From: a bacterium
Lineage (GTDB): Bacteria; Verrucomicrobiota; Verrucomicrobiia; Chthoniobacterales; UBA6821
NCBI GenBank assembly: GCA_037130175.1
Contig: JBAXTN010000006.1
Location: forward strand, 21,829-85,828
DNA: 64,000 nucleotides
Reading direction: 5' to 3'
The notes below the pieces were generated by a model. The model saw nothing but the letters and a program-made list of their open reading frames with translations. It ran no database searches and was not told the DNA's origin. The position numbers and the translations under genes are program-made. Numbering within the stretch: the stretch's first letter is position 1; every line of letters begins with the position of its first letter. Of this stretch, positions 3,313 through 22,585 are shown piece by piece.

Positions 3313-3358
3313 GCAAGGAAGATTGAGGATTTGAAATCTGATCCGCCGGTTTTTCCAG

Positions 3359-4228
3359 ATGAAAGATTCTTCCCTCCCCGTCATCGGTCTCGTTGCCGGC
3401 GATCCCGCAGGTGTAGGGCCCGAGTTGCTGGCCGAGACATTGAAACAGGTTCCCGCAGGTGTGTGTCTGCAAGTCATCGGCGACCCATCGCCTTGCAATT
3501 CAGGGGTTCCTGACAGGGAAGGATCACTCCGAGCCATTGCTTCGCTTGAAGAGGCGGCACGGAGGGTCGTTGCCCAAGAGTTGGCGGCGGTTGTCACCGG
3601 ACCTGTAAACAAAAGGCATCTGCACGAGGTTGGATTCGAATTTCCCGGACAGACTGAATTTTTCGCTGCGCGGGCCAGAGTGAACAACTTTGCCATGTTG
3701 CTCACTGGAGGCGGTCTGACCGTGGCGCTCGTCACCGCTCATCTGCCGCTCAAGCTGGTTTCAGAACAGCTTACCACCTCTGAGATTGTCAGGGTGGGGG
3801 AACTGCTGGCGGACTTTCTGAAGCGACGAGGGATTCCTTCACCCCGTATTGCCGTGGCGGGGCTCAATCCTCATGCGGGGGAAAACGGAGATTTGGGGGA
3901 TGAGGAGCTCGTGGTGATTGCTCCGGCCCTCCCCCTATTGAACGCTGCGAGTCCCGGCACATCCTTCTCCGGACCCTGGAGCCCTGACACGGTTTTCTGG
4001 AGAGCCTCCCAGGGAGAGTTTGATGCCGTCCTCTGCATGTATCACGATCAGGGACTGATCCCGCTGAAGTTACTCGGCTTCCACGTCGGGGTGAATGTGA
4101 CGATCGGCCTCCCGTTCATCCGTACAAGCCCCGATCATGGAACTGCCTATGAGATCGCAGGAAAAGGAATTGCCCGCCCTGAGAGTTTTCTCTCAGCTGT
4201 GCGACTGGCTGCCGAGTTGGTACGATGA
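3359..4228 (+). CDS. pdxA: 4-hydroxythreonine-4-phosphate dehydrogenase
   Basis: PdxA motifs are present end to end: GDPAGVGPEL, TGPVNK, FPGQTEFF, AHLPL, GLNPHAGENG, MYHDQGLIPLK, SPDHGTAYEIAGKG. Confidence 0.93.
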   Translation: MKDSSLPVIGLVAGDPAGVGPELLAETLKQVPAGVCLQVIGDPSPCNSGVPDREGSLRAIASLEEAARRVVAQELAAVVTGPVNKRHLHEVGFEFPGQTEFFAARARVNNFAMLLTGGGLTVALVTAHLPLKLVSEQLTTSEIVRVGELLADFLKRRGIPSPRIAVAGLNPHAGENGDLGDEELVVIAPALPLLNAASPGTSFSGPWSPDTVFWRASQGEFDAVLCMYHDQGLIPLKLLGFHVGVNVTIGLPFIRTSPDHGTAYEIAGKGIARPESFLSAVRLAAELVR

Positions 4229-4366
4229 AATTTGCGTGGAGAGGCTAGCTGTGATCTCAGGAAAAGCTAATTATACCTGCGCTTGCCTAAGCCATACCCC
4301 TGTGCAGAGTATGGACATAGAAACAGTTTTTCATCAGAATCCTGACACGTCCTCCCACCCTCCCTT

Positions 4367-5413: not shown

Positions 5414-5536
5414 GCAGGCACTCAGGTCCGGAGGAGATTTTCTTCCAAGAGAAGAGCCGAGGGAATCCGCTGATTATCGTCGGGGAGAGTCTTTTTGTAA
5501 CCGGCGTCCGGAAAGAAGTGTGGTGAAAGACAGTTT

Positions 5537-7054: not shown

Positions 7055-8379
7055 ACACCGATAAGGAATCAGAGGAGGAGTATCAGGGGCCCCTAGGGTT
7101 ATTTCCTGTCCCGTATTCTCGGGGTGTCTTCAACTTTCATTGGTTCAATTTCTTCAATGCAATCTGCTTCCAGATCATTTTGGGAGCCCCCACCGTGCTT
7201 CTGGCTAAGGAACTTGGCGCCAGTTCGACAATCCTCGGCATCATTGCGGCCTTCACTCCCCTGATGACAACGCTTCAATTGCCGGCGGCCAGACACCTTG
7301 GAATGTATAGCTACCGATCCTTTACCCTGATGGGGTGGGGTCTTAGGTCGATCTTTATCGCCACCTCGGCGATTGTTCCCCTGCTCTACTTTTTCACGAA
7401 GGAAATCCGTCTGGGACTACTCCTCGCAAGCCTCTTCTTTTTTAATGTCCTGAGGGGTATTTCATCGGCGGCGTTCCTTCCCTGGATCACCAATGTGGTG
7501 CAGGGAACGATGAGGGGAAGGTTTATCAGCATCGACCAGACATTTGTCTATGGCGGTTCCCTGATCACCATGTTCCTCTCATCACTGATGATGAGAGGCC
7601 AGGTGGAACCGTGGCGCTATTCACTGGTGCTATGGCTTTCCGTGGCCGGATCCGTGATCAGCCTGCTCTTTCTCCGTCTCATTCCCGACCCTCCTCATCC
7701 TGATCGGGAGAAAAGCCCCTCCCGGCCGGTTCCCCTCCGCGTGATGGTGTCGCTGGAACCCTTCCGTAACAGCATCCTCTTCAGTCTTCTCTTCACGACT
7801 GTTGCCGGTGGTTTGGGAGTCTTTCCGATCGAGTATCTCAGGATGCAGGCTCAATTTTCCCCATCCGCGATCTATGCCCTCTCCGCTGCTTCCTTCATTG
7901 CACCGATGATCACGCTCCAGTGGGTCGGTGCCCGAGTGGATCGTCTGGGAAGCATCCCGATGATCCGATATTCAGTCTCTCTCTTTGCAGTGGTTCTCGC
8001 ACTCTGGTTTGCCATGTCAGCGGGACTCATTCCCCACGATTGGAAGCTTGTCCTGCTACTCAATCTGCTTGGAGGTGTCGCGATGGCGGGGGTCAATATG
8101 GCCAACCTCCATCTCGGAATGGCGGTTGTTCCGGAGTCCGGCAAGAATCATTTTTTTGCAATGACCACGGTGATCACCAGTTTTGGAATGGGAATTGTTC
8201 CTGTGCTCTGGGGCTGGCTGCTTGATGCGCTGGGTGGGATGGATTTGGTGTATGGTCCCTTTCATCTTCGACGACACAGCATTTACTTTCTGGGCGTCTG
8301 CCTACTTTCCCTATGCACGCTGCTAGCAAGCAGAATACTGATTGATCCGGGTCAGAGTGGCAGGATGAAAAAATCCTGA
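7051..8379 (+). CDS. MFS-type transporter
   Basis: 442-aa polytopic membrane protein. It has two blocks of hydrophobic helices separated by a charged loop (PDPPHPDREKSPSRP). The GTG start overlaps the lysS stop (GTGA). Confidence 0.7.
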   Translation: MNTDKESEEEYQGPLGLFPVPYSRGVFNFHWFNFFNAICFQIILGAPTVLLAKELGASSTILGIIAAFTPLMTTLQLPAARHLGMYSYRSFTLMGWGLRSIFIATSAIVPLLYFFTKEIRLGLLLASLFFFNVLRGISSAAFLPWITNVVQGTMRGRFISIDQTFVYGGSLITMFLSSLMMRGQVEPWRYSLVLWLSVAGSVISLLFLRLIPDPPHPDREKSPSRPVPLRVMVSLEPFRNSILFSLLFTTVAGGLGVFPIEYLRMQAQFSPSAIYALSAASFIAPMITLQWVGARVDRLGSIPMIRYSVSLFAVVLALWFAMSAGLIPHDWKLVLLLNLLGGVAMAGVNMANLHLGMAVVPESGKNHFFAMTTVITSFGMGIVPVLWGWLLDALGGMDLVYGPFHLRRHSIYFLGVCLLSLCTLLASRILIDPGQSGRMKKS

Positions 8380-8419
8380 TTCAGATTTTTCTCTTTAGGA
8401 TTTTTCTTACCCCCGAGAC

Positions 8420-9739
8420 ATGGCACCGTTCGGTATGAGTTTGCCTGCACCGCTCTTTCTGGCGGCCCGTTATTTAAAACCTAAGCGCACTTTTCTGGCT
8501 GTAATCACACTGATCTCCGTGATCGGGGTGACGCTTGGAATCACTGTTCTGATTCTTGTGATGTCAGTCATGACGGGATTCGAGAAGGAACTGCAACGCA
8601 AAGTGATAGGGTTTGATGCCCATCTCCTGATTTCAAATAACGGTCTCATGGACGAGTGGCATGATGTGGCTGCCAAAATTGCAAAGGCTCCCGGAGTGCT
8701 GGCTTCTGCTCCCTTCGTGCAGGGGCCTGTGATCGTGGAGTTCAATCATCAGAGACTTGCCCCTAAAATTAGGGGGGTTGATGCCGGGCTCGAAAAAAAA
8801 ATGGATGATCTTTCCAAGTTCATCATTGCCGGGAAACTGGATCTTGATGGAGACAACGCCGTCGTCGGCTCTGAGTTGGCACGGGCGCTTGGCGTTCATG
8901 TGGGCGATGTCATCACCATTTACTCGCCGAGAAATCTCGGTGAGGTGATCGAGCGGCTTGATCGGCTCAAGAAGAGTCATGGCAAATCCACAGAAACGAA
9001 TAAGGGAGGGGATATTGACTCTCTGCGGGAGCTTGTGTTGCCTACAGAGGTCACTGTCACGGGAATCTTTGAGAGTGGTCGTTATCTCTATGACAGCGAG
9101 TTTCTCGTCGTCCCTCTGCATATCGCCCAGGAGCTCTACGGTCTTGGTGGTTCAGTGCATGGACTTGCCGTGCGAACCATTGACCCGGATCGTGCCGCCG
9201 ACATCAGGGAAGAAGTGCGCGCTCTCATCGGTGATGATCTCTCCTGTACGACTTGGATGGATATGAACAAGCAGCTCTTTGATGCCATTTCCATGGAGCG
9301 CCATGTCATGTTTTTCCTGCTCATGTTCATTATTCTTGTGGCCGCCTTCGGCATCATGAACACCCTCATTACCATGACCGTTCAGAAAACCCGTGAAATC
9401 GGTGTCCTCAAGGCACTCGGTGCCCGCACATGGCAGGTGATCTCTGTCTTTCTGATCCAGGGAATGGTGATCGGTGTGTTTGGTGTCGCCAGCGGGCTTG
9501 CCCTTGGTATGACTCTTATCCGCTGGCGCAATGAGGTGAGTCAATGGCTGGCCCACACGCTTGGCGTGGAGATTTTTCCTCGGAGCGTCTATCAATTTAA
9601 TGAAATTCCCGCCGAGGTCGTGCCAAGCGATGTGGCGATGATCTGTCTCTGCGCCTTTATCATCTGCTCACTTGCGGCACTTATTCCGGCATGGATCGCC
9701 TCCCGGCTTGATCCGGTTAAAGCCCTGCGATGCGAGTAG
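8420..9739 (+). CDS. LolC/LolE-family lipoprotein-releasing ABC transporter permease (MacB/FtsX-like)
   Basis: N-terminus LFLAARYLKPKRTFLAVITLISVIGVTLGITVLILVMSVMTGFEKELQRKV, a large periplasmic domain and a C-terminal FtsX 3-helix bundle (KTREIGVLKALGA...). ATG 8435 is an alternative start. No lolD-like ATPase gene is adjacent. Confidence 0.85.
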   Translation: MAPFGMSLPAPLFLAARYLKPKRTFLAVITLISVIGVTLGITVLILVMSVMTGFEKELQRKVIGFDAHLLISNNGLMDEWHDVAAKIAKAPGVLASAPFVQGPVIVEFNHQRLAPKIRGVDAGLEKKMDDLSKFIIAGKLDLDGDNAVVGSELARALGVHVGDVITIYSPRNLGEVIERLDRLKKSHGKSTETNKGGDIDSLRELVLPTEVTVTGIFESGRYLYDSEFLVVPLHIAQELYGLGGSVHGLAVRTIDPDRAADIREEVRALIGDDLSCTTWMDMNKQLFDAISMERHVMFFLLMFIILVAAFGIMNTLITMTVQKTREIGVLKALGARTWQVISVFLIQGMVIGVFGVASGLALGMTLIRWRNEVSQWLAHTLGVEIFPRSVYQFNEIPAEVVPSDVAMICLCAFIICSLAALIPAWIASRLDPVKALRCE

Positions 9740-9768
9740 GATCGGATGCAGGATTCAGAACGAAGGGG

Positions 9769-10332
9769 CTAAAAAAACGCCAGCCTTAACCCGTCGATCA
9801 TCAATGCCGCCCCGAAGAGGATGGCTCCCCAGCAGGCGACATCCCACCGCCATTTTGCCCCACAGACCCAGCCGATCAGATCACGGTGAAGATAGGGCAT
9901 GCCGACGAGGAAGAGTCCGGCAAGCGCCCAGACATAAGCCAGAGATGCCAGTGCGAAATGGAGAAAACCATGTTGAAGGAAGGTAGTTTCAAGAACCGGA
10001 TGTGCCGCCAGTAGCAGAAGGAATCCAAGAGAACGCGAGGAGAGGAAATCAGGCACAAACTTCCAGAGGAGTGCCGCCCCCACCACAATTGCGATCATCA
10101 CCATGTTACGCATTGGGGAAAATTCACCCAGATCCGTCGTCGCTGCGACAATCAGTAGCCAGAGGACAGTGACTGAAAGCAGAACGGTTCCCCAGGTGCG
10201 GGATCGCGGAAAAGCCCGGGCCGTGGTCATGAAGAAATCCGCAGCCAGCAGGCCAAAGAGATGGGATGCGAGAATCGGAGTCCCGATCAAGATGGCGACA
10301 ATCGGAAGATCGGGGGTCGAAGAAAAGTCCAT
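9769..10332 (-). CDS. Hypothetical integral membrane protein
   Basis: ORF 9769..10392 encodes several hydrophobic helices. Internal Met21 (MDFSSTPDLPIVAILIG, 10332) avoids overlap with the rnc stop region. No recognisable family. Confidence 0.55.
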   Translation of the reverse strand: MDFSSTPDLPIVAILIGTPILASHLFGLLAADFFMTTARAFPRSRTWGTVLLSVTVLWLLIVAATTDLGEFSPMRNMVMIAIVVGAALLWKFVPDFLSSRSLGFLLLLAAHPVLETTFLQHGFLHFALASLAYVWALAGLFLVGMPYLHRDLIGWVCGAKWRWDVACWGAILFGAALMIDGLRLAFF

Positions 10333-12153: not shown

Positions 12154-14190
12154 ATGAAAAAACTCGGACTGCTCGTAACTATTCTTGCACTACTAGGAGG
12201 CAAAGCCTTCGCGGCAGCCGGCGCCGAACTGAGCAACAATTCCACCACCGGTATCTTGCTAGGATCTGGTACCGAAACCATCGATGGGGGCGTAAGCCTG
12301 ACAGTGAGTGGCAGCACCGACGCCATCCAAGTCACTAATAATTCTACGATCGTCAACAACGGGACTATTTCTCAAACAGGTTCGGCCAGAGCCATCCGGC
12401 TTACCAATGCGGGTGTGACACTGGTGATTACGAATTCGAGCACTGGAGTGATGCAGGCGAGTAATAGCGATGTCGTTGCGGTCACTAAATCCTCCAACGA
12501 TAATGTCTATCTCTACAACTCCGGTACGATCAACTCGATCAACTCGTCTGCCGGTGGCAATCAGGGCATTAACTGGAGCGTTATCACGACGGGTACAAAC
12601 GTCCTTTACAACTACGGATCTGGCACCATCACGGCGGCCAATGCAGATGCGGTACGTCCGGGTGCAGGCGGTATCATTTACAATGCCGGCACGATCAAGA
12701 GCACGACCACCAACGGTAGCGGTAGCGATGGCATCGATGCCCAGACCAACTCAGGATTCACTGTCGTCAATGCCTTTACCAACGGAACCGGACTGATCGA
12801 AGGTGGAAGACATGGGATCACTGGTGGTATAACTAACGGATCTGGAAATTACTCTGTAACAATCACGAACAACACTGGAGGAACCATACAGGGAGACAAC
12901 GGCTCTGGTATCAATATTGATGGGATCAACGGGAGCGAAATCGTTTCGGTCATCAATAACGGCACAATTACGGGCAACGGTCACTCCCTGGCAGTCGAAA
13001 CCAACGCAGTGAGTCATGACGGTGATGGTATTGACGTCGACGGCATCCTCAATCTTACCAACACAGGAACCATCCGCTCTATCGGAGCTTATAGCACAAA
13101 TGGAGCGATTGCCTACAGTGAGGGACTTACCATTGGTGGTGGTATCATCGTTAACTCTGGCCTGATTGAGGGAACCAACACGGCCGGTTATTCCAACACA
13201 CTGGGACGCGGAATCTCATTTCTCGGCAACGACACAACCAATAACCCCACAGGACGTGAACAAATCTATGGCAACTGTGTGGTGACCAACCAAGCTGGTG
13301 GCATCATCCGCGGTGGAAATGACTCGGCTATCGTCGTCGATGGTCCTGCCAACACCAATGGCTACACGGTGAGCATCAACAACCAGGCCGGCGGCACGAT
13401 CCAGGGAGGAAGTAGCTCCAACGCAGCAATTGCGGTGGGTTCCAACAGCGCCACCATTATTAACTCCGGCACGATCGACGGATCCTCTAGCGGCAAGGCC
13501 ATCTCATTTCAGGGAGGCACCAACTTGGTCCAAATCACTGGAGGAAGCGCTGTGGTTCGGGGTGACATCATTGGATCAGTCGGTGGATCTAACTCGTTAA
13601 CCATTGCAGCGGGTACGGGAAACAGTTTTAGCTTCAGTAATTCGGTCTCCAATTTTAGCTCCATCCAATTACAGAGTGGTACGACTACTCTTCTTGGAAG
13701 TAATTCATTTGGAGGAGCGGTGAGCGTCTCAAATGGCGCTATTCTAGCCGCGGGTTCAGGTGGAGCTGGCAGCTTAAGTTTTTCACAGGGGTTAACACTT
13801 GTCTCCGGATCAATCCTCCAATTTGCTCTTGGAGGCACTAATAGTTTCACTTCTATCCATATGACGGGTGGATCTACATTAACCTACGGGGGAACTTTGC
13901 AGTTTAACCTTTCCTCTTACAATTTTGTCACCGGGGATACCTTCACTCTCTTTGACTTATCTGGTGGAACTTATACGGGTGATTTTTCCTCGATCATGGA
14001 TGGAGGGATCTCCTTTACGAAATCCGCCGGGATCTGGAGTGCCAATGATGGTAACAACCACTCGCTTGTTTTCAACGGATCTACCGGTCAGTTGAGTGTT
14101 AGCGCAGTCCCCGAACCCTCCACCTACGCGCTCTTCGGCCTTGGTGCGCTGTCTCTCTTGATTGCTGCTAGAAGGAAGAAGGCTTTATAA
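12154..14190 (+). CDS. PEP-CTERM-anchored surface protein with autotransporter-passenger-like beta-helix repeats
   Basis: Signal peptide (LLVTILALLGGKAFA) and about 600 aa of G/S/T/N-rich beta-strand repeats (NxGTIxG..., GGTIQG..., SGTIDG...). The C-terminus VPEPSTYALFGLGALSLLIAARRKKAL is a canonical PEP-CTERM sorting signal. Confidence 0.88.
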   Translation: MKKLGLLVTILALLGGKAFAAAGAELSNNSTTGILLGSGTETIDGGVSLTVSGSTDAIQVTNNSTIVNNGTISQTGSARAIRLTNAGVTLVITNSSTGVMQASNSDVVAVTKSSNDNVYLYNSGTINSINSSAGGNQGINWSVITTGTNVLYNYGSGTITAANADAVRPGAGGIIYNAGTIKSTTTNGSGSDGIDAQTNSGFTVVNAFTNGTGLIEGGRHGITGGITNGSGNYSVTITNNTGGTIQGDNGSGINIDGINGSEIVSVINNGTITGNGHSLAVETNAVSHDGDGIDVDGILNLTNTGTIRSIGAYSTNGAIAYSEGLTIGGGIIVNSGLIEGTNTAGYSNTLGRGISFLGNDTTNNPTGREQIYGNCVVTNQAGGIIRGGNDSAIVVDGPANTNGYTVSINNQAGGTIQGGSSSNAAIAVGSNSATIINSGTIDGSSSGKAISFQGGTNLVQITGGSAVVRGDIIGSVGGSNSLTIAAGTGNSFSFSNSVSNFSSIQLQSGTTTLLGSNSFGGAVSVSNGAILAAGSGGAGSLSFSQGLTLVSGSILQFALGGTNSFTSIHMTGGSTLTYGGTLQFNLSSYNFVTGDTFTLFDLSGGTYTGDFSSIMDGGISFTKSAGIWSANDGNNHSLVFNGSTGQLSVSAVPEPSTYALFGLGALSLLIAARRKKAL

Positions 14191-14244: not shown

Positions 14245-14497
14245 TTGCATAAAGAGCGTTACAAAATCGAAACAAAGCTTCCTCGCTAACTGGAAGAAAG
14301 GGAAAAACAACTCCCCAAACAGAAAATCAGACGAGTTAACCGTTTTGTTCAAAAGAAAAGATGGCTTTTTGTTCGGTAAGACACCCAGGAACTGTGTTTA
14401 AAGGCGGATAAAACAAAAATTCATTTTCTTGTGAAATATCTCTTGCGCTCTGGTTGGGAGTATGTTTTCATTTTCATACGAAATCACAATTTCACCC

Positions 14498-15481
14498 ATG
14501 AAAAACAAATCACTCCTCCTCGTTCTTGCCATTGTCTCTGGTTCATCATTCTGCCTTAAAAGTGCCCACGCTCAAAACCTCACCGTATCGAACTTCCAAA
14601 GCATCGATGTTCCGGGGGCTTCCCAGACCCTGGCTTATGCCATTGCGGGTAATACAGAGGTCGGTCAATACACTCAAAATGGCGTCACCTATGGTTTTGC
14701 GGAAACGGGCTCAAGCATCACGACCCTGAATCACGCCACCGACAGGACGCCGGCCAATACTTACCTTAGAGGAGTTTATGTCGATCCCAACACAGGAAAT
14801 ACAACATTGCTAGGGGGCTACTACAGCAAAGATGGTCTCTCCCATGGCTTCTCGCAAACCGGAGGAGTCTATACGGCGATCAATGATCCCAAGGGCGTGT
14901 CTACTTATGTCTTCGGGAAGTCTGGAGAAACCGTGGTGGGATATTATAATCTGGCCAATGGTAATAGTATCGGGTTCAGCATGACCGGAGGAACCTATTC
15001 AGATATCATTGATCCCAATGCCGGGACTCATACCTACCTGCGAAGCATCTCTGGAAATACAATCGTTGGAGATTACACTGATAAAAATAATGTCAGCCAT
15101 GCTTTTTCAGAGACTGCCGGACTCTTCACCGACATTAATCTTCCGCCGGGCGTGCAATCTTCCTCTGCGCGGGGGATCTCTGGAAACATAGTTGCGGGTT
15201 TCTACACTGACCTCAATGGGATCACCCAGGGTTTCCTCGAAATGGGCACAACCTTTACACCGGTTATTGATCCGGCGGGTGGCCTCGGTAGCAAAACCTA
15301 TGTGACCGGTATTTCCGGTAATGAGATTGTCGGCTATTATACGACTGCCGCTGGAGTGAGTCATAGCTTCACGGCAGATATTGCAGTTGCACCGGGAGCT
15401 CCCGCTCCCCCCGTGACCGCTTGCTTGGCATTTGCAGGAGTTCTCCTGCTCCAAGCACTTCGGAACCGTAAGACTGCTTAA
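14498..15481 (+). CDS. Secreted HAF-family extracellular repeat protein with atypical C-terminal anchor
   Basis: The likely start is Met13 (MKNKSLLLVLAIVSGSS, signal peptide); the ORF opens at 14462. It carries about 7 repeats of the form ISGNxIVGxYTxxxGxSHAF/HGF/QGF. The tail is APGAPAPPVTACLAFAGVLLLQALRNRKTA. Confidence 0.82.
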   Translation: MKNKSLLLVLAIVSGSSFCLKSAHAQNLTVSNFQSIDVPGASQTLAYAIAGNTEVGQYTQNGVTYGFAETGSSITTLNHATDRTPANTYLRGVYVDPNTGNTTLLGGYYSKDGLSHGFSQTGGVYTAINDPKGVSTYVFGKSGETVVGYYNLANGNSIGFSMTGGTYSDIIDPNAGTHTYLRSISGNTIVGDYTDKNNVSHAFSETAGLFTDINLPPGVQSSSARGISGNIVAGFYTDLNGITQGFLEMGTTFTPVIDPAGGLGSKTYVTGISGNEIVGYYTTAAGVSHSFTADIAVAPGAPAPPVTACLAFAGVLLLQALRNRKTA

Positions 15482-15725: not shown

Positions 15726-15764
15726 GTGCCTGCGTGGGAAATAACCCAAAACCGCAGTCATATT

Positions 15765-16310
15765 ATGAAAAAAATCATTCTCGCCCTCGCTCTCGTGGCA
15801 GGGCTTACCTCATTCGCTGGAAATGCGAAGGCTCAGCAACAGTTTGCATTTAGTTTTACAGGTAACACTACTCCTGGCGGTCCATTTTACACTGATACGA
15901 TCCAAGGAATTCTAACGTTAAATTCACAAGGAACCGCAGCAACGAGTGTCTATGTAACAAATGACATCGGAGGTAATGTTAACGTTTTAAGTTACAATTT
16001 TAATGAATTTGTTAATGCGAACAGTTTCACTGTGAGCAATATAGGCGGAGTCCCTACGATAATTGCTGGTCAGTATAATGGTTATGCCGGTAATGGTGCG
16101 GATGGACTTTCTCTTAATTATGTTGGTTCTGGTTCTCAAGTTTATGTATCTGAATACGTTATCGCTGGGGCAATCGTTTTGAACGAAATCTCTATTTCAA
16201 CTGGTATTGGAGGCACAACCTTCTCAGCAGTCCCCGAGCCTTCGACCTACGCTCTCTTCGGACTTGGTACCTTGGCTCTGATTATTGCCTATCGCAGGAA
16301 AGTCGCTTAA
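15765..16310 (+). CDS. Small PEP-CTERM-anchored secreted protein
   Basis: ATG 15765 gives MKKIILALALVAGLTSFAGNAKA (signal peptide); the listed ORF opens at GTG 15726. The C-terminus VPEPSTYALFGLGTLALIIAYRRKVA is nearly identical to the tail of the 12154 gene. The coding sequence is AT-rich. Confidence 0.85.
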   Translation: MKKIILALALVAGLTSFAGNAKAQQQFAFSFTGNTTPGGPFYTDTIQGILTLNSQGTAATSVYVTNDIGGNVNVLSYNFNEFVNANSFTVSNIGGVPTIIAGQYNGYAGNGADGLSLNYVGSGSQVYVSEYVIAGAIVLNEISISTGIGGTTFSAVPEPSTYALFGLGTLALIIAYRRKVA

Positions 16311-17745: not shown

Positions 17746-18153
17746 TCAGCGACGGAAGGATCCAGAGCGACCACCCGATCCGTGCCAAGAGCCGGATCCT
17801 CCACCCCATGAAGCAGAGCCACCACGGTAACCGTTCGCGCTGCCTGAACCGCCTCCCCACGAGGCGGAACCTCCGCGATAGCCTTGGGCATTGCCCGATC
17901 CGTTATTCCATGATGCGGATCCACCGCGTGAGTTATTGTAGTAGCCGCTGTTGTTGTAGCTGTTGCGGTAGGCATTGTTGTAATAACTGCCTCCATAGAA
18001 TCCAGCGCCACCCCAGCCATAGGCGGGGACGACAGCGGCAGGAGATCCGTAGACTGCAGGTCCCGTGGAATAAACGCCGCTGCAACCCGTTTGGGAAAGA
18101 AGCATGAAGGGGCAGAGAGCCACCAGAGCAAGGAGGGAGAGGTGTGATTTCAT
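17746..18153 (-). CDS. Small lipoprotein, Gly/Ser/Tyr/Asn-rich with 17-aa tandem repeats
   Basis: Met48 of ORF 17746..18294 gives MKSHLSLLALVALCPFMLLSQTG-C (lipobox). The longer ORF would overlap the upstream gene. The mature part contains GGSYYNNAYRNSYNNSGYYNN followed by RGGSASW(N/G)(N/G)GSG(N/S)A(Q/N)GY repeats. Confidence 0.72.
   Translation of the reverse strand: MKSHLSLLALVALCPFMLLSQTGCSGVYSTGPAVYGSPAAVVPAYGWGGAGFYGGSYYNNAYRNSYNNSGYYNNSRGGSASWNNGSGNAQGYRGGSASWGGGSGSANGYRGGSASWGGGSGSWHGSGGRSGSFRR
17785..17928 (-). repeat. In-frame 51-nt tandem repeat (about 2.8 copies) inside the lipoprotein gene
   Basis: It encodes RGGSASWNNGSGNAQGY / RGGSASWGGGSGSANGY / RGGSASWGGGSGSW. Coordinates were derived by counting codons back from the stop. 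Confidence 0.7.
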
Positions 18154-18172
18154 GGGGAGTTCTCGGTGAGGA

Positions 18173-18922
18173 TTAGCGGCCTGAGGAATGGAGTACGGCA
18201 GCAAAGGGGATCTTAGAGAATCCAAGCGGTTGATGAAATTCGAAGGAAGAACTTGAAAGCCAAGGATGCAGGTTCCATCGGGAGAACTCGACAACAGTAC
18301 GCGGATACATGGGCCTGTCTGTAAAAGTGACGGCTAGTCTTCGAGGAAGTGCATCACGACCCGCATCAATCCAGATTTCCCAATTTACATCGGGTGATCT
18401 GAAGGCGAGATGATCGCATGCAACCCCATTGACTTTCGTGCGACCGATAACAATCCCACTCAGAAGATTGCGCGTCAGAATGGAGTAGGGATCGCTATAA
18501 AACAGAGGCGAGGAGGGAAATCGAATTCCCGTTTCACGGGTCAAACCAGTAAGCATGTCGTCCAATGTAGAAGGGGCACTCGTCGTGGAATAAACCTTTT
18601 TCTGAGGGGCAAGAGCTGAAACGGATGCTCCATTATAGAAAAAATTAAAGGCAGGAGCATCACCGCCAAGCTCCGCGCGGAGTTTATCGGGTCGCTTGAG
18701 TGCGATATTTCCCGTAGAAAAGAGTGTGATGAGTTGTCCTGTGAAAGCAGGTACTTCCAAAATACTCTTCGAGCGCACAGTGAAAGATTTTGCGCTAGAG
18801 AGGGAAGTGCTCATGTTCTTGAGCAAGGCGAGGGCTGCTGGATCAACCGCAGCTTTTTTCTCAGCGTGAAGAGGAGAGGCGATCAGCAAAGCTGAGAGGG
18901 ATAGAATGCCGAATGTTTTCAT
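18173..18922 (-). CDS. Periplasmic protein, tentatively LolA-like / DUF2092-type
   Basis: Met13 gives MKTFGILSLSALLIASPLHA (signal peptide). The size (~250 aa) and sequence flavour (ALLKNMSTSLSSAKSFTV...LKRPDKLRAEL...VNGVACDHLAFRSPDVNWEIWID) resemble DUF2092 as I remember it. The family call needs an HMM search. Confidence 0.55.
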   Translation of the reverse strand: MKTFGILSLSALLIASPLHAEKKAAVDPAALALLKNMSTSLSSAKSFTVRSKSILEVPAFTGQLITLFSTGNIALKRPDKLRAELGGDAPAFNFFYNGASVSALAPQKKVYSTTSAPSTLDDMLTGLTRETGIRFPSSPLFYSDPYSILTRNLLSGIVIGRTKVNGVACDHLAFRSPDVNWEIWIDAGRDALPRRLAVTFTDRPMYPRTVVEFSRWNLHPWLSSSSFEFHQPLGFSKIPFAAVLHSSGR

Positions 18923-19218
18923 GGTTTGGTTTAGGGGGGGTGTAAGTGAGGTGATCACATAACAATCTGCCTGAGGGATAAAAGCACTTCCAATCTACAG
19001 GAGAAAGATTCTTCTAGGGAGCGGTTACAATTTCACATTTTGAAATATTCGTCACAATGAGCTTACCCGATGATTTGGCCAGAGCTAGGTTGAGGGTCTG
19101 GAGGCATTGAGCGGATGATTTTTAACTCTGGATTTGTATCCGACTTGGGAGGAAGTGCACGAAAGCATTTACAGGACAGTCGTTTCCTGCGACCTTCTCG
19201 CCCTGACAGTTTTCCTTC

Positions 19219-20550
19219 ATGGCAAGAGACCTCTTTCAAAAATGCCGCGACTATAGCGACTCTGCGGATGCCCGGGCACAGGGATTTTACCCTTACTTCC
19301 GTTGCATCGAGGAGAGCTTGGGCAATCATGTGATCTGCGAAGGCGAGAGCAAGATCATGATCGGGTCCAATAATTATCTCGGACTTGCCCAGGATCCCCG
19401 CGTCGTCGAGGCCGCCTGCGCCGCAACGCGCAGATACGGGGCGGGCTGCACCGGTTCACGCCTGCTCAACGGTACGATCACGCTTCACAATCAACTGGAA
19501 GAAGCCCTTGCCGATTTTCTCCAACGGGAATCCGTCATGCTTTTTTCCACCGGATTCTTTGCCAATCAGGGAGCATTGGCAGCACTTCTGGAATCCGACG
19601 ATGTGATTCTCTGCGACAGGGAGAACCACGCCTCGATCATCGAGGGGTGTCAGGTCTCTCCGGCAAGGCTGATTCCCTACCGACACAATTCCGTCGATGC
19701 CCTGTACAACCGTCTCAAGCGCGTTCCCGAAGAGGCAGGCAGGCTCATCATCATGGATGGAGTGTTCAGCATGTCGGGTGACATAGCCGATCTGCCTCCC
19801 ATGGTCCGGGCCGCCAAGGAATATGGGGCCGTCATGTATGTCGATGAGGCACACTCTCTCGGGGTGCTTGGCCCTGAAGGGCGGGGCACGGTACACCACT
19901 TCGGCGTGAATGATGATGTGGAGATCGTCATGGGAACTTTCTCGAAGTCACTTGGCTCGATGGGTGGATTTATCGCCGGATCGCGGGAGATGGTGGAATT
20001 TCTCAAACACAAGGCCCGCTGTTTCATCTTTACCGCCTCGCTGGCTCCGGCTGTCGTCGGAGGTGTCCTCAAGGCCCTTGAGATTATGCGTGCCGAGCCT
20101 GAGCGTATCGAACTGCTCTGGCGCAATACCCGTAAAATGCATGAGGGCTTCAAGTCGATCGGTTTCAAGATAGGTTCCACCCAAACTCCGATTGTGCCGA
20201 TTCTGATCGGCAGCGAGTCCAAGGCATTTGCCTTTGCCCAGAGGTTGTTTGAAGAAGGGGTCTTTGCCACTCCAGCCATCTACCCAGCCGTCCGCTATGG
20301 CGAGGCAATCGTCCGTACCAGTTTCATGTCGAGTCACACGGAGGAGGATCTTGATAAGGTGCTCGACATTTTTGCCCGCATTGCCCGAGAACTTGGAACT
20401 TTCGATGATCCAGCATACACAGAACCAGGCCGCCGTCGGAATGTCTTCGATTTTGCCCTGCCGGACCGCGGCGGAGCTGAAAAAGTTCGAACAGATTCCG
20501 GAACTTCTACACTCAACGGATCCGGGCTTCACGCCTCCGTTTCCCGGTAG
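19219..20550 (+). CDS. PLP-dependent alpha-oxoamine synthase, serine palmitoyltransferase-like
   Basis: The AOS family fold is present throughout: GSNNYLGL, CTGSRLLNGT, DRENHASII, MDGVFSMSGD, YVDEAHSLGVLG, and the PLP lysine in GTFSKSLGSMGG. The N-terminus FYPYFRCIE is typical of the Spt/KBL-like branch. About 45 aa of C-terminal tail lie beyond the usual family end and overlap the next gene. Confidence 0.88.
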   Translation: MARDLFQKCRDYSDSADARAQGFYPYFRCIEESLGNHVICEGESKIMIGSNNYLGLAQDPRVVEAACAATRRYGAGCTGSRLLNGTITLHNQLEEALADFLQRESVMLFSTGFFANQGALAALLESDDVILCDRENHASIIEGCQVSPARLIPYRHNSVDALYNRLKRVPEEAGRLIIMDGVFSMSGDIADLPPMVRAAKEYGAVMYVDEAHSLGVLGPEGRGTVHHFGVNDDVEIVMGTFSKSLGSMGGFIAGSREMVEFLKHKARCFIFTASLAPAVVGGVLKALEIMRAEPERIELLWRNTRKMHEGFKSIGFKIGSTQTPIVPILIGSESKAFAFAQRLFEEGVFATPAIYPAVRYGEAIVRTSFMSSHTEEDLDKVLDIFARIARELGTFDDPAYTEPGRRRNVFDFALPDRGGAEKVRTDSGTSTLNGSGLHASVSR

Positions 20551-21559
20551 TGTCTTCAAACTGATCGAGCCGAAATCCGTCTTCGTGCAGAAGCACGGGG
20601 AGGTGCATCCCCTGATTGCCTATCGTGATGGCAAGCCGGTCGGTCGCATCGCCGCCATCGTCAATCGTTCACACAATGGCTACAACAAGGATGCCGTTGG
20701 TTTTTTTGGGTTTTTCGATTCGATTGATGATCAAATTGTCGCGACCGCACTGATGGAAGCGGCCTCCAAAATTTTACTGGCCAAGGGGATGACCTCGATG
20801 CGAGGCCCTTATAACCCCTCCATCAACGATGATTGCGGTATTCTGGTGGAGGGATGTGAGCGCCCGAGCTTTGTCTCCATGCCTTGGAATCCGGTCTATT
20901 ACGCCAAACTCGTGAAGGGTGCCGGATTGGAGGGTGTGCGCACCCTCTATGCATGGGAAGTGCCGTTGCTGCGTGAGGCACCAGAGAGGGTCAACCGCAT
21001 CGTTGACCGCATCAAGAAACGCAGTAAAGTCACCGTGCGTCCGATTAATCTGAAGGAGATCAAGAAGGAGATGGAGATCATCCATCGACTCTACAACCAA
21101 TGTCTGGATCGCAATTGGGGTTTCTACCCCATCGCCCTTGAGGATCTGCTTCATGCAGCGGATGATCTCAAGGCTATCGCCAATCCGGAACTCATCCTCT
21201 TTGTCTGTATGGATGGTAGGGAGGTGGGATTCTCCCTTGCCTTGCCAAATGTGAATGAGGTTTTCCATGCATCACGAGGGCGCAAGGGAATCCTTCGTTT
21301 TCTCGAAATGGCTCTGCGTCTCCAGTTCCAAAAAATCAAAACAGATCGTCTCTGCGTGCTGGGGGTGGAGCCCGCCTACCGTGACAAGGGGCTTAGTGCC
21401 CTGCTCTTCTTTGAGAGCTTCCGTGTGGCGAAGGCCAGCTATGAAGTTTCCGAAATTTCCTGGGTCGAGGCAAATAATGTCGAGATTCTGGAGGGTGCGG
21501 AACTAATGGGCGGGTATCGCTCCCGCACCTACGAGCTGTTTGAGAAGACGCTGGTGTAA
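20405..21559 (+). CDS. Large GNAT-superfamily N-acyltransferase (~380 aa)
   Basis: ATG 20405 or ATG 20441 within ORF 20228..21559. The family pattern is DPGFTPPF...HGEVHPLIAYRDGKPVGRIAAIVNRSHN...VGFFGFFDSIDD...MRGPYNPSINDDCGILVEG...NWGFYPI...VLGVEPAYRDKGL. Confidence 0.8.
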   Translation: MIQHTQNQAAVGMSSILPCRTAAELKKFEQIPELLHSTDPGFTPPFPGSVFKLIEPKSVFVQKHGEVHPLIAYRDGKPVGRIAAIVNRSHNGYNKDAVGFFGFFDSIDDQIVATALMEAASKILLAKGMTSMRGPYNPSINDDCGILVEGCERPSFVSMPWNPVYYAKLVKGAGLEGVRTLYAWEVPLLREAPERVNRIVDRIKKRSKVTVRPINLKEIKKEMEIIHRLYNQCLDRNWGFYPIALEDLLHAADDLKAIANPELILFVCMDGREVGFSLALPNVNEVFHASRGRKGILRFLEMALRLQFQKIKTDRLCVLGVEPAYRDKGLSALLFFESFRVAKASYEVSEISWVEANNVEILEGAELMGGYRSRTYELFEKTLV

Positions 21560-21574
21560 GTTCAATTATTTTTA

Positions 21575-22585
21575 ATGGAACTCCTTCTCACCGGAGCTAC
21601 GGGATTTGTCGGGAGGAATCTCCTGCTACGATTGATTCCTGACGCTCGTTTCTCTAGAATCATCCTTCCGGTTCGCGATCCCGAGAAACTCAAGATGCAG
21701 CTCAGTATGGAATTGCGCGACGCGATGACTATGGATCAACTCGGAGATCGTCTTCAGATCGTTAAGGTTTCAGGCGATGCATGGGAAATTCCCGGGAGGG
21801 TGCGACCCGATCTCGCCATTCATGCAGCGGGACGGCTCTTTGGCCGGGAACGCGAGGGATATTTCCAGACCAATATGCAGGGAAGTCTCAATCTCGCAAG
21901 GCAACTGCCCGAGATCACGCGCATGATCGTCCTTTCTTCCTTGGCCGCGGGAGGGCCGACTCCGAAGGGAAAGGAGTCTCGAAGCATGGATCATGATGAT
22001 GCCCCCTTTTCTTTCTATGGAGCCTCGAAGCTTGCGATGGAAAAGAGATTGCAGGAAAAACTTGGCTCACGATTGCTGATCCTTCGCCCTCCGATGGTTC
22101 TTGGGGCTAGGGATACGGCCACTGTGCCACTTTTTCAAATGGCGAAGGGAGTGGTGCGGGTTAAACCGGGATTCCAGCCCAAGCAGTATAGCTGGATCGC
22201 TGTGGATGATCTCTGTGATGCTTTGCTCGCAGCAGCAATGTCGCAGTGGCCCGATGATCGGAAGCCGTTCTATCTCACGGGCAGCGGGAGTATCACCGAT
22301 ACCATGTTGCTTGCCACGGCGGCAGAGGTCATTGCTGCACGAGGCATAACCCTTCCGCTCCCGCACGCAGTGATCCAGGGAGTGTCTATATTGCTGGATT
22401 CCATTCCAGCCCTGCGTGAAGCCGTGCCAAGCCTCGGCCGGGATCGTGTGCGGGAAATCCTACCCAACCGCTGGGTCTGTGATGGGAGCGAGTTTGCCAA
22501 GGCTTTTGATTGGAAACCACGCAGGGGATTCGCTGAAACATTGAAGGCGACTGCCGAGTGGTTAAAAAACCGGGATAAAATTTAA
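21575..22585 (+). CDS. NAD(P)-dependent epimerase/dehydratase-family (extended SDR) oxidoreductase
   Basis: Rossmann motif LLTGATGFVGRNLL, catalytic YGASK, 336 aa. Confidence 0.85.
   Translation: MELLLTGATGFVGRNLLLRLIPDARFSRIILPVRDPEKLKMQLSMELRDAMTMDQLGDRLQIVKVSGDAWEIPGRVRPDLAIHAAGRLFGREREGYFQTNMQGSLNLARQLPEITRMIVLSSLAAGGPTPKGKESRSMDHDDAPFSFYGASKLAMEKRLQEKLGSRLLILRPPMVLGARDTATVPLFQMAKGVVRVKPGFQPKQYSWIAVDDLCDALLAAAMSQWPDDRKPFYLTGSGSITDTMLLATAAEVIAARGITLPLPHAVIQGVSILLDSIPALREAVPSLGRDRVREILPNRWVCDGSEFAKAFDWKPRRGFAETLKATAEWLKNRDKI

What the first reader, a model, noticed from the sequence alone, without database searches (positions are those of the whole stretch)
19219..22585. Spt-like synthase + large GNAT + extended SDR: candidate sphingoid-base/ceramide (or sulfonolipid) lipid cluster
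Three co-directional, tightly packed genes are involved. The first is an alpha-oxoamine synthase of the serine-palmitoyltransferase-like branch (FYPYF N-terminus, PLP Lys in GTFSKS). The second is a ~380-aa GNAT-superfamily N-acyltransferase. The third is an NAD(P)-dependent epimerase/dehydratase-family reductase (GATGFVG, YGASK). These are exactly the enzyme classes of the bacterial ceramide route worked out in Caulobacter. There, Spt condenses serine with an acyl thioester, a GNAT-type bCerS N-acylates, and an epimerase/dehydratase-family CerR reduces the 3-keto group. The same chemistry (AOS plus SDR reductase) also underlies capnine/sulfonolipid synthesis, so the head group cannot be read from the sequence. 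Sphingolipid-type lipids are not a textbook trait of Verrucomicrobiota. No dedicated ACP or acyl-ACP synthetase gene is adjacent. A Sfp-type PPTase sits at 48.5 kb, but that is probably unrelated.
Basis: partly seen in the sequence, partly recalled or inferred. Interest (0 to 1): 0.6.

Follow-up and report, generated by a model that had tools for sequence, protein, structure and literature searches.

The report
Verrucomicrobial ceramide synthesis operon spt–bcerS–cerR
Three tightly packed genes in this freshwater Verrucomicrobiota contig are the bacterial ceramide (sphingolipid backbone) pathway already defined in Caulobacter, so this is a correct but largely expected find in a phylum where such lipids have not yet been measured.

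Summary

- **AOS (alpha-oxoamine synthase) gene.** It sits in a 100/100-bootstrap clade with the crystallised Sphingobacterium multivorum serine palmitoyltransferase, outside Kbl and BioF. All SmSPT (S. multivorum SPT) active-site residues are kept.
- **"Large GNAT".** It is a tandem-GNAT protein of the YghO/CC_1154 family, which is the bacterial ceramide synthase (bCerS). It is 29% identical over 97% of E. coli YghO, and the family profile scores 378 bits on YghO.
- **Extended SDR.** Its family profile scores 187-206 bits on the E. coli and Sphingomonas proteins at the CerR (CC_1164) position, more than on any solved structure.

Across 80 species-level genomes from about 12 phyla, the AOS lies directly upstream of the GNAT in 62 of 77 evaluable loci. 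The full trio is present in 45 of 63. Natural Spt-bCerS fusion proteins exist.

No AcpR or AasR gene is in the window, which fits a CFB-type, acyl-CoA-using Spt. The sulfonolipid reading is unlikely.

Such clusters were already reported across phyla, including 22 Verrucomicrobiota MAGs (Black Sea study), so this is a new member of a known kind.

Two side findings came up. Verrucomicrobial Spt has a C-terminal tail encoded in a 110-nt out-of-frame overlap with bcerS. Public gene calls truncate bcerS.

The parts
19219..20550 (+). spt: serine-palmitoyltransferase-like alpha-oxoamine synthase, 443 aa. The catalytic domain covers residues 1 to about 395 (nt 19219-20403). A lineage-specific 48-aa C-terminal tail follows.
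   Evidence: - Pfam Aminotran_1_2, E 8.5e-57.
- NCBIfam best hit is SerpalmtaseCFB at 483.8 bits, below its 640-bit cut-off.
- PDB best hit is S. multivorum SPT at 390 bits, against Kbl 264, cysteate acyltransferase 249 and BioF 202.
- In an NJ tree it falls in a clade with SmSPT at 100/100 bootstrap, and all Spt separate from Kbl and BioF at 99/100.
- N51, G79, S80, H137, S184, D209, A211, H212, T240, S242 and K243 match the SmSPT active site.
20404..20550 (+). C-terminal extension of Spt, sequence DDPAYTEPGRRRNVFDFALPD... Its last 110 nt (20441-20550) overlap the bcerS start in a different frame.
   Evidence: - All 17 verrucomicrobial loci have a tail of 28-50 aa, and most of them share the motif PGRR[KR]NVFDF. 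AOS genes of other phyla stop at the end of the domain.
- In 13 of the 17, the stop is a TAG inside the Gly-Ser codons of the bCerS motif PFPGS.
- In L012 the overlap is tandemly duplicated and each copy keeps one frame intact.
20441..21559 (+). bcerS: tandem-GNAT N-acyltransferase of the YghO/CC_1154 (bacterial ceramide synthase) family, about 372 aa. An alternative in-frame start is at 20405. Public gene calls start at 20585 and are truncated.
   Evidence: - The family alignment begins at about this Met.
- AF2 model has pLDDT 89.3 and shows a two-GNAT-domain fold. The N-terminal 50 residues are modelled at pLDDT above 90.
- Foldseek top hits are tandem GNATs: 2wpw, 5kf1, 7q3a and MshD.
- 29% identity over 97-99% of its length to E. 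coli YghO and to the Sphingomonas N-acetyltransferase. Profile A1 scores 378 and 358 bits.
- An R-x-x-G-x-S CoA-loop motif (YRDKGLS) sits in the C-terminal domain, and R303, G308, W341 and N346 are invariant.
21575..22585 (+). cerR: extended-SDR NAD(P)-dependent reductase of the CerR (CC_1164) family, 336 aa.
   Evidence: - Pfam Epimerase, NAD_binding_4 and 3Beta_HSD.
- Invariant TGxxGxxG, S121/S122, Y148 and K152 across 30 cluster-linked homologues.
- Profile A4 scores 206 bits (Sphingomonas) and 187 bits (E. coli) on the SDRs at the CerR position. The best PDB chain scores 143 bits, and NDUFA9 scores 82 bits over nearly its full length.
- Pairwise identity is 25% (E 4e-15 and E 2e-13).
- There is no signal peptide: the Rossmann motif starts at residue 5.

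Best explanation
The three genes form an spt-bcerS-cerR operon that makes the (dihydro)ceramide backbone.

Proposed steps:
1. Spt, a PLP-dependent alpha-oxoamine synthase, condenses L-serine with a long-chain acyl thioester to give 3-ketosphinganine. The thioester is most likely acyl-CoA, because the enzyme belongs to the Sphingobacterium-type clade and no AcpR or AasR gene is present.
2. The tandem-GNAT bCerS N-acylates this amine from a second acyl thioester.
3. The extended-SDR CerR reduces the 3-keto group with NAD(P)H.

The order acylation-then-reduction follows the Caulobacter model (PMC11087976). Natural Spt-bCerS fusion proteins fit that order.

Shown here: family membership of all three proteins, conserved catalytic residues, conserved synteny and the fusions. 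Inferred: the substrates (serine, chain lengths, CoA versus ACP), the order of steps, and that the lipid is actually made. No head-group-modifying gene is adjacent, so the final lipid class is unknown.
For: **Spt**
- PDB phmmer: SmSPT 390 bits, Kbl 264, cysteate acyltransferase 249, BioF 202.
- NCBIfam best hit is SerpalmtaseCFB.
- NJ bootstrap 100/100 with SmSPT and 99/100 against Kbl and BioF, with the active site identical to SmSPT.

**bCerS**
- Full-length 29% identity to E. coli YghO and to the Sphingomonas N-acetyltransferase beside lptF/lptG. Profile scores are 378 and 358 bits.
- PMC9386255 lists yghO with CC_1154 as the same gene class, one of the two genes required for dihydroceramide biosynthesis.
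- Tandem-GNAT fold.

**CerR**
- Profile scores of 206 and 187 bits on the SDRs at the CC_1164-equivalent position, above every PDB chain.

**Context**
- AOS is directly upstream of the GNAT in 62 of 77 evaluable loci, the SDR is adjacent in 48 of 63, and the trio is complete in 45 of 63. These are species-level loci from about 12 phyla.
- These three are the only families conserved around the GNAT.
- Spt-bCerS fusions P0303 and P0330, and a bCerS-fatty-acyl-AMP-ligase fusion P0366.
- A PAP2_3 gene (the superfamily of Aur1/IPC synthase, from my own knowledge) follows the trio in 15 loci, mostly of Gemmatimonadota.
- The reverse search of Sphingomonas and E. coli sphingolipid proteins against the window hits only these three genes.
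- The Black Sea study reports bCerS and CerR co-localised with Spt-like genes in many phyla, and 22 Verrucomicrobiota MAGs with Spt-like proteins.
Against: - There are no lipid data for this organism or, in the library searched, for any Verrucomicrobiota.
- The AOS score of 483.8 bits is below the curated NCBIfam equivalog cut-off of 640.
- Pairwise identity to the reference bCerS and CerR orthologues is only 25-29%.
- The Caulobacter proteins themselves could not be fetched, so the link runs through their published E. coli and Sphingomonas orthologues.
- The tandem-GNAT family is large (5571 representatives at 50% identity). Some members have no AOS nearby (13 of 80 loci; Roseomonas, Rubrobacter and Streptomyces plasmid copies), so the family is not exclusively ceramide synthase.
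- Amino-acid specificity of AOS enzymes cannot be read with certainty from sequence.
Confidence: 0.85

Rival explanations
1. The cluster makes a sphingolipid-like lipid from a different amino acid. Alanine or glycine would give 1-deoxy(methyl)ceramides, and other amines would give N-acyl aminoketone or aminoalcohol lipids or signalling molecules. The three reaction types would be the same.
For: - SmSPT also accepts L-Ala and Gly, at lower efficiency (PMC10196870 abstract).
- The Black Sea supplement notes that 1-deoxyceramides come from the same enzymes.
- The AOS falls below the SPT equivalog cut-off.
Against: - All residues that contact L-serine and PLP in SmSPT are conserved in the window protein and across the GNAT-linked clade: N52, G80, S81, H138, T241, S243 and K244.
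- The partner enzymes are the ceramide ones.
Confidence: 0.08
2. The cluster makes sulfonolipid or capnine. The AOS would condense cysteate with acyl-CoA (CapB/SulA-like), the SDR would reduce dehydrocapnine, and the GNAT would N-acylate capnine.
For: The enzyme classes are the same. Cysteate-C-fatty acyltransferase (28eh) and the Alistipes SulA-like enzyme (7u7h) are detectable homologues of the AOS at 249 and 236 bits.
Against: - The AOS is much closer to SPT (390 bits) and sits inside the SPT clade at 100/100.
- The GNAT and SDR belong to the bCerS and CerR families.
- The immediate neighbours are DUF2092, DUF179 and an unknown 420-aa protein, none of them a cysteate synthase.
- CapB and SulA were not included in the tree.
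Confidence: 0.04
3. The three are unrelated housekeeping enzymes that happen to be adjacent: BioF or Kbl (JGI annotates the AOS as BioF), an acetyltransferase and a sugar epimerase.
For: Public annotations are generic or say BioF. The SDR's top NCBIfam hit is a sugar-epimerase-like family, HpnA, at 46.5 bits.
Against: - The trio is conserved across about 12 phyla.
- Fusion proteins exist.
- The AOS is excluded from Kbl and BioF at 99/100 bootstrap.
- No bio or tdh genes are nearby.
Confidence: 0.02

Closest known systems
Caulobacter crescentus ceramide pathway: Spt (CC_1162/CCNA_01220), bCerS/CerS (CC_1154/CCNA_01212) and CerR (CC_1164/CCNA_01222). Sources: Olea-Ozuna 2021; Stankeviciute 2022; PMC11087976; PMC11324152.
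   Same: The same three enzyme families are present: AOS-type Spt, YghO-family tandem-GNAT N-acyltransferase, and NDUFA9-like extended-SDR reductase. The chemistry is presumably the same. Homology was shown through the published E. coli and Sphingomonas orthologues.
   Different: - There is no specialised ACP (AcpR) or acyl-ACP synthetase (AasR), and no LptF2/LptG2 or head-group genes nearby.
- The three genes form one compact operon, whereas in Caulobacter they are spread over about 10 genes.
- The Spt belongs to a different clade from the rhodobacterial Spts (36% identity).
- Identity to the reference bCerS and CerR orthologues is only 25-29%.
Sphingobacterium multivorum serine palmitoyltransferase (PDB 3a2b, 8guh; PMC10196870)
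   Same: It is the closest solved relative: 45% identity, 390 bits, and an identical active-site residue set. It is a soluble homodimer-type AOS that uses palmitoyl-CoA directly.
   Different: The window protein has a 48-aa C-terminal extension that SmSPT lacks. It falls below the NCBIfam CFB-SPT equivalog cut-off (483.8 against 640 bits).
Spt-like, bCerS and CerR clusters in uncultured bacteria (Black Sea metagenomes, PMC11334938)
   Same: This is the same kind of co-localised cluster. That study counted 1271 MAGs from 38 phyla with Spt-like proteins, 22 of them Verrucomicrobiota. One of my related loci (L059) is a Black Sea Ignavibacteria MAG.
   Different: This contig comes from a different metagenome (JGI 3300021605), with Chthoniobacterales as nearest relatives. 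The verrucomicrobial tail and overlap do not appear in the passages of that paper I read.
E. coli B / ETEC yghO-aasR-epi-acpR-spt cluster (PMC9386255)
   Same: YghO is a full-length homologue of the window GNAT, and the epimerase-family gene is a homologue of the window SDR.
   Different: The E. coli cluster is the five-gene rhodobacterial type, with a dedicated ACP, a fatty acyl-AMP ligase and lptF/lptG paralogues.

Membership tests
Bacterial serine palmitoyltransferase (Spt) | Fold-type-I AOS with a PLP-binding Lys and the His/Asp/His PLP-contact residues | tested here: met
   Aminotran_1_2, E 8.5e-57. K243, H137, D209 and H212 align to SmSPT K244, H138, D210 and H213.
Bacterial serine palmitoyltransferase (Spt) | Clusters with characterised SPTs to the exclusion of Kbl and BioF | tested here: met
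   NJ tree of 23 sequences with 100 bootstraps gives 100/100 with SmSPT and 99/100 for all Spt against E. coli Kbl plus BioF. HemA, CqsA and CapB were compared by score only.
Bacterial serine palmitoyltransferase (Spt) | Reaches the curated NCBIfam equivalog score (NF047600 CFB-type, cut-off 640 bits) | tested here: not met
   483.8 bits. It is the best family hit but below the cut-off. The model was built for the CFB (Bacteroidota-type) group named in it, whereas this contig is verrucomicrobial.
Bacterial serine palmitoyltransferase (Spt) | Catalyses serine plus acyl thioester to 3-ketosphinganine | not testable with these tools
   This needs an enzyme assay.
Bacterial ceramide synthase bCerS (CC_1154 / YghO family) | Full-length homology to the genetically defined CerS or its published orthologues | tested here: met
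   29% identity over 97% of E. coli YghO (E 3e-47) and over 99% of the Sphingomonas orthologue (E 3e-49). Profile A1 scores 378 and 358 bits. The yghO = CC_1154 equivalence comes from PMC9386255. The Caulobacter sequence itself was not available.
Bacterial ceramide synthase bCerS (CC_1154 / YghO family) | GNAT acyl-CoA N-acyltransferase fold | tested here: met
   The AF2 model has pLDDT 89.3 and pTM 0.87. Foldseek gives probability 1.00 to tandem GNATs. A conserved R-x-x-G-x-S loop is present in the C-terminal domain.
Bacterial ceramide synthase bCerS (CC_1154 / YghO family) | Genomic linkage with spt and cerR | tested here: met
   The gene is adjacent to both in the window. AOS is upstream in 62 of 77 loci and the trio is complete in 45 of 63. 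Spt-bCerS fusions exist.
Bacterial ceramide synthase bCerS (CC_1154 / YghO family) | N-acylates 3-ketosphinganine or sphinganine | not testable with these tools
   This needs an enzyme assay.
Ceramide reductase CerR (CC_1164 family) | Homology to the SDR encoded beside acpR and spt in rhodobacterial sphingolipid loci | tested here: met
   Profile A4 scores 206 bits (Sphingomonas) and 187 bits (E. coli), against 143 bits for the best of 177,635 PDB sequences. Pairwise identity is 25% (E 4e-15 and E 2e-13) over nearly the full length.
Ceramide reductase CerR (CC_1164 family) | Conserved NAD(P)H-binding site and similarity to NDUFA9 (PMC11087976) | tested here: met
   TGATGFVG and the S-Y-K triad are invariant. 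NDUFA9 chains are hit at E 3.5e-22 over profile positions 5-301, although NDUFA9 is not the top PDB hit.
Ceramide reductase CerR (CC_1164 family) | Reduces the 3-keto group of oxidised ceramide or 3-KDS | not testable with these tools
   This needs an enzyme assay or a knockout.
Rhodobacterial five-gene dihydroceramide system (Spt, AcpR, AasR, CerR, CerS) | Dedicated ACP (AcpR) and acyl-ACP synthetase (AasR) encoded with spt | tested here: not met
   tblastn of Sphingomonas AcpR and the E. coli fatty acyl-AMP ligase against the whole window gives no hit at E <= 1. No ACP or AMP-binding family is conserved around the trio in 80 loci.
Capnine / sulfonolipid pathway (CapA/CapB/CapC, SulA) | AOS closest to cysteate-C-fatty acyltransferase, with a cysteate synthase present | tested here: not met
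   28eh scores 249 bits and 7u7h 236 bits, against 390 for SPT. The neighbours are DUF2092, DUF179 and an unknown protein. The rest of the genome is not available.

The most novel reading that the evidence does not exclude
Verrucomicrobial Spt carries a selected, lineage-specific C-terminal peptide with the motif PGRR[KR]NVFDF. It is encoded in a conserved 110-nt out-of-frame overlap with bcerS. The peptide could dock Spt onto bCerS or the membrane. Alternatively, the overlap could couple translation and fix the Spt:bCerS ratio, making a non-covalent counterpart of the Spt-bCerS fusion proteins seen in other lineages. That would channel 3-ketosphinganine straight to N-acylation. If so, the locus would bear on the disputed order of steps in bacterial ceramide synthesis, and would be a clean natural case of a dual-coding segment kept by selection in both frames.
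Probability: 0.15. Interest if true: 0.5.

Novelty: new member of a known kind. Interest (0 to 1): 0.3.

Why it matters
The locus adds a well-supported genetic case that freshwater Chthoniobacterales (Verrucomicrobiota) can make ceramides. I found no published lipid measurement of sphingolipids for this phylum.

That bears on reading environmental sphingolipid and long-chain-base signals as biomarkers. It also bears on envelope biology in the PVC (Planctomycetes-Verrucomicrobia-Chlamydiae) group.

Practically, the three genes are mis-annotated or under-annotated in public records. They are labelled BioF, "N-acetyltransferase" with a truncated start, and "NAD(P)-dependent oxidoreductase". The compact three-gene, ACP-independent operon is a convenient minimal cassette for heterologous ceramide production.

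The pathway and its wide distribution are already published, so a specialist would not be surprised.

Tried and rejected
- **Reference paper unavailable.** The key paper (Stankeviciute 2022) is not held under its DOI or PMC id, so Caulobacter CCNA_01212 and CCNA_01222 could not be compared directly. The Black Sea supplements hold no sequences.
- **GNAT sequence searches.** The sequence search of the GNAT against PDB gave nothing useful, and NCBIfam has no model for it.
- **First genome scan failed.** The 52-sequence alignment A1 was too diverse for the search for related loci. The smaller alignment A2 worked.
- **Alphaproteobacterial loci.** I looked for a Caulobacter-type context (lptF/lptG, ACP) around the alphaproteobacterial members L055 and L057 and did not find one. 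The link came instead from tblastn against plasmid records.
- **Retracted fusion.** The apparent 768-aa AOS-GNAT "fusion" ORF in L040 is a spurious open frame in a high-GC genome. The AOS stops 27 nt before the GNAT.
- **Promoters and terminators.** The scans found no more sites than in shuffled sequence.
- **Structural support for the SDR.** The profile hits many extended SDRs, and NDUFA9 is not the top PDB hit. The NDUFA9 resemblance is therefore real but not discriminating.
- **Literature searches.** Searches for sphingolipids in Verrucomicrobia returned only the Black Sea study.

Full report
**What is in the sequence**

Three co-directional ORFs occupy 19219-22585.
- An alpha-oxoamine synthase (AOS) at 19219-20550, 443 aa.
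- A GNAT-superfamily ORF open from 20228 to 21559.
- An extended-SDR ORF at 21575-22585, 336 aa.

Pfam gives Aminotran_1_2 (E 8.5e-57), a weak Acetyltransf_1 hit (24.9 bits) and Epimerase/NAD_binding_4/3Beta_HSD.

The contig is a JGI lake metagenome scaffold, 3300021605 Ga0194054_10000121. NCBI holds the same three proteins as MEI6322047-49 from a MAG labelled only "bacterium". They are annotated as a generic aminotransferase, "N-acetyltransferase" and "NAD(P)-dependent oxidoreductase". JGI calls the AOS of a close (at least 90% identical) relative "8-amino-7-oxononanoate synthase".

The nearest genomes are Chthoniobacterales MAGs, with AOS 88%, GNAT 77% and SDR 61% identity.

**The AOS is an Spt**

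Against NCBIfam the best model is the CFB-type serine palmitoyltransferase at 483.8 bits. That is ahead of the BioF/Kbl-related subfamily (410), beta-proteobacterial Spt (401), Kbl (391) and BioF (388). It is below the curated 640-bit equivalog cut-off.

Against all PDB sequences the ranking is:

| PDB protein | Bits |
|---|---|
| Sphingobacterium multivorum SPT | 390 |
| Bifunctional 8-amino-7-oxononanoate synthase/Kbl (7poa) | 319-320 |
| SPT chains labelled only "serine palmitoyltransferase" (2jg2 group, which I take to be Sphingomonas) | 290-297 |
| Kbl | 264 |
| Cysteate-C-fatty acyltransferase | 249 |
| BioF | about 200 |

I built an NJ tree from the window AOS, 17 GNAT-linked AOS proteins from other phyla, SmSPT, the Sphingomonas and E. 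coli-B Spts, and E. coli Kbl and BioF. The window protein falls in a clade with SmSPT and all GNAT-linked AOSs at 100/100 bootstraps. All Spts separate from Kbl and BioF at 99/100.

The residues that contact PLP and L-serine in the SmSPT crystal structures are N52, G80, S81, H138, S185, D210, A212, H213, T241, S243 and K244 (PMC10196870). All are identical in the window protein and invariant in the clade, apart from one T241S change.

**The "large GNAT" is a bCerS-family protein**

An exhaustive HMMER search finds 5571 50%-identity representatives, typically 370-385 aa. They align from about the MSSILP methionine at nt 20441.

An AlphaFold2 model (pLDDT 89.3, pTM 0.87) shows two GNAT domains. 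Foldseek against the PDB returns tandem GNATs at probability 1.00: the clavulanate-pathway protein 2wpw, glucosamine N-acetyltransferase 5kf1, MAB_4324 and mycothiol synthase.

The link to ceramide synthase came from a tblastn search of plasmid records, some of which are really chromosomes. The window protein aligns end to end at 29% identity with two proteins.
- **E. coli YghO.** In that record yghO is followed by a fatty acyl-AMP ligase, an epimerase-family SDR, an ACP, an AOS, and lptG/lptF paralogues.
- **A Sphingomonas parapaucimobilis N-acetyltransferase.** It lies beside lptF/lptG, a 420-aa AOS (whose N-terminus I recognise as the S. paucimobilis SPT), an ACP and an NAD(P)H-binding SDR.

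PMC9386255 (Fig. 9 legend) lists exactly these genes as the rhodobacterial sphingolipid set. It groups "aca: CC_1154, yghO ECD_02850 ..." and "epi: CC_1164, ECD_02852 ..." as the two genes required for dihydroceramide synthesis. PMC11324152 names CC_1154 as cerS and CC_1164 as cerR.

A profile of my 52-sequence GNAT alignment scores 378 bits on YghO and 358 bits on the Sphingomonas protein. The window gene is therefore a member of the bCerS family, at about 29% identity to the rhodobacterial branch.

**The SDR is a CerR-family protein**

Thirty cluster-linked homologues share invariant TGxxGxxG, Ser121/122, Tyr148 and Lys152.

Their profile scores 206 bits on the Sphingomonas SDR upstream of acpR-spt and 187 bits on the E. 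coli one. Pairwise identity is about 25% (E 4e-15 and E 2e-13) over nearly the full length. Against the whole PDB the best score is 143 bits, for a putative oxidoreductase (3wj7). NDUFA9, the protein to which CerR is said to be homologous (PMC11087976), is matched at E 3.5e-22 over positions 5-301.

The CerR-position proteins are thus the closest known relatives of this SDR family.

**Conservation of the cluster**

A scan of one genome per GTDB species with a GNAT alignment found at least 551 species. The 80 best loci come from these groups:
- Verrucomicrobiota (Chthoniobacterales, Terrimicrobiaceae)
- Gemmatimonadota
- Ignavibacteria and other Bacteroidota
- Zixibacteria
- Binatia
- Poribacteria
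- Thermodesulfovibrionia
- Bdellovibrionota
- Planctomycetota
- Acidobacteriota
- Cloacimonadota
- Alphaproteobacteria

Synteny counts:

| Feature | Loci |
|---|---|
| AOS within 400 nt upstream of the GNAT | 62 of 77 evaluable |
| SDR adjacent | 48 of 63 evaluable |
| SDR downstream, same strand | 34 |
| SDR upstream, divergent | 17 |
| SDR upstream, same strand | 7 |
| Full trio | 45 of 63 evaluable |

Clustering all ORFs of these loci shows that these three families are the only widely conserved ones. No ACP or AMP-binding family is conserved.

The fourth most frequent family occurs in 15 loci, the examples seen being Gemmatimonadota. It is a PAP2_3 protein. From my own knowledge this is the superfamily of Aur1/IPC synthase, so it is a plausible ceramide head-group transferase.

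Two independent 50%-identity clusters are natural Spt-bCerS fusion proteins, P0303 and P0330. One is a bCerS fused to a fatty acyl-AMP ligase 31% identical to the E. coli cluster's ligase (P0366). One is a tandem double bCerS (P0241).

Searching the Sphingomonas and E. coli sphingolipid proteins back against the 64-kb window hits only these three genes, and finds no AcpR or AasR.

**Mechanism**

The best-supported reading has three steps.
1. Spt condenses serine with acyl-CoA to give 3-ketosphinganine.
2. bCerS N-acylates it.
3. CerR reduces the 3-keto group.

Family membership, catalytic residues and linkage are shown here. Substrates and the order of steps are inferred.

The absence of AcpR and AasR is expected. 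The enzyme belongs to the Sphingobacterium-type clade, whose crystallised member uses palmitoyl-CoA. The rhodobacterial clade prefers acyl-AcpR.

The Spt-bCerS fusions fit the Caulobacter model in which acylation precedes reduction. They do not prove it.

**Rival readings**
- **Sulfonolipid.** This is disfavoured by the AOS scores and by the identity of the two partner enzymes.
- **A different amino acid (1-deoxy lipids).** This cannot be excluded from sequence.
- **Chance adjacency of housekeeping enzymes.** The synteny excludes this.

**Comparison with what is known, and novelty**

The pathway was defined genetically in Caulobacter. It was predicted in hundreds of species and nine phyla by Stankeviciute et al., as cited.

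The Black Sea study extended Spt-like proteins, often with bCerS and CerR co-localised, to 38 phyla. It counted 22 Verrucomicrobiota MAGs.

I found no report of measured sphingolipids in Verrucomicrobiota in the searchable library.

This locus is therefore a new member of a known kind.

**Side observations**

*A verrucomicrobial Spt tail.* All 17 verrucomicrobial AOS genes, and none from other phyla, carry a 28-50-aa C-terminal tail, most of them with the motif PGRR[KR]NVFDF. In 13 of them the tail ends at a TAG embedded in the Gly-Ser codons of the bCerS motif PFPGS. That gives the 110-nt out-of-frame overlap seen in the window (20441-20550).

In locus L012 this segment is tandemly duplicated. 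The first copy keeps the Spt tail frame intact and the second keeps the bCerS N-terminus. This suggests that both frames are under selection.

*Truncated public gene calls.* Because of the overlap, public gene calls start bcerS at 20585 or later (324, 315 or 253 aa). That removes about 48 conserved residues that the model places in the first GNAT domain at pLDDT above 90.

*bcerS-cerR without spt.* Some Terrimicrobiaceae have a bcerS-cerR pair with no adjacent spt.

Noticed in passing
window 20404-20550 (overlap 20441-20550); loci L003-L025: Verrucomicrobial Spt proteins carry a 28-50-aa C-terminal tail that is absent in other phyla; most copies share the motif PGRR[KR]NVFDF. In 13 of 17 loci the tail ends at a TAG inside the Gly-Ser codons of the bCerS motif PFPGS. 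This gives a conserved 110-nt out-of-frame overlap of spt and bcerS.
   Followed up: partly
L012 9771-10130: In one Verrucomicrobiae MAG the overlap segment is tandemly duplicated. Copy 1 keeps the Spt-tail frame intact and copy 2 keeps the bCerS N-terminus intact, while the other frame in each copy is degenerate. This suggests that both reading frames of the overlap are selected.
   Followed up: partly
window 20441-20584: Public gene calls (NCBI MEI6322048.1, JGI, ENA) start the GNAT at 20585 or later, giving 324, 315 or 253 aa. They cut off about 48 conserved N-terminal residues that form part of the first GNAT domain in the model. JGI names a close (at least 90% identical) relative of the AOS "8-amino-7-oxononanoate synthase".
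   Followed up: yes
P0303, P0330, P0366, P0241 (proteins): Natural fusion proteins exist: Spt-bCerS at about 780 aa in two separate clusters, bCerS fused to a fatty acyl-AMP ligase at 940 aa, and a tandem double bCerS at 784 aa.
   Followed up: partly
L033 12027-12998 and 14 further loci (examples seen are Gemmatimonadota): A PAP2_3-superfamily gene (PF14378) directly follows cerR. It is a candidate ceramide phospho-head-group transferase. No such gene lies near the trio in the window.
   Followed up: partly
L009 9932-12142; L022 2603-4673; L017: Some Terrimicrobiaceae and Chthoniobacterales genomes have the bcerS-cerR pair with no spt next to it. In L009, leuA and a carbonic anhydrase lie upstream.
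   Followed up: partly
L083 (E. coli PN43 record NZ_MG591698.1) 1-10092: E. coli yghO sits beside a fatty acyl-AMP ligase, an epimerase-family SDR, an ACP, an AOS, lptG/lptF paralogues and a flippase-like gene. This is the rhodobacterial sphingolipid cluster described for E. coli B in PMC9386255. The record is typed as a "plasmid" but carries the chromosomal glc operon.
   Followed up: partly
one search hits H1-H18 (Roseomonas, Rubrobacter, Streptomyces, Nonomuraea and Klebsiella plasmid records): Full-length members of the same tandem-GNAT family occur on plasmids and chromids. In Roseomonas, nucleotidyltransferase and "dATP pyrophosphohydrolase" annotations lie under the match. The family may have functions beyond ceramide synthesis.
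   Followed up: no
window 12154-14190, 14462-15481, 15726-16310: Three secreted, repeat-rich proteins lie upstream of the cluster. Two of them end in a PEP-CTERM-type sorting signal (VPEPSTYALFGLG...RRK).
   Followed up: no
window 18173-18958 (-) and 17746-18294 (-): A DUF2092 periplasmic protein (Pfam E 1.9e-58) and a small Gly/Ser/Asn/Tyr-rich ORF lie divergently just upstream of spt. Neither is conserved next to the trio beyond close relatives.
   Followed up: partly
window 48500-49231 and 51294-57071: The Sfp-type PPTase sits between aspS (46153-47931) and a DEAD-box helicase (49238-50461), so it is not linked to the lipid cluster. A type II secretion block (secretin GspD, GspK-like) follows on the minus strand.
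   Followed up: yes
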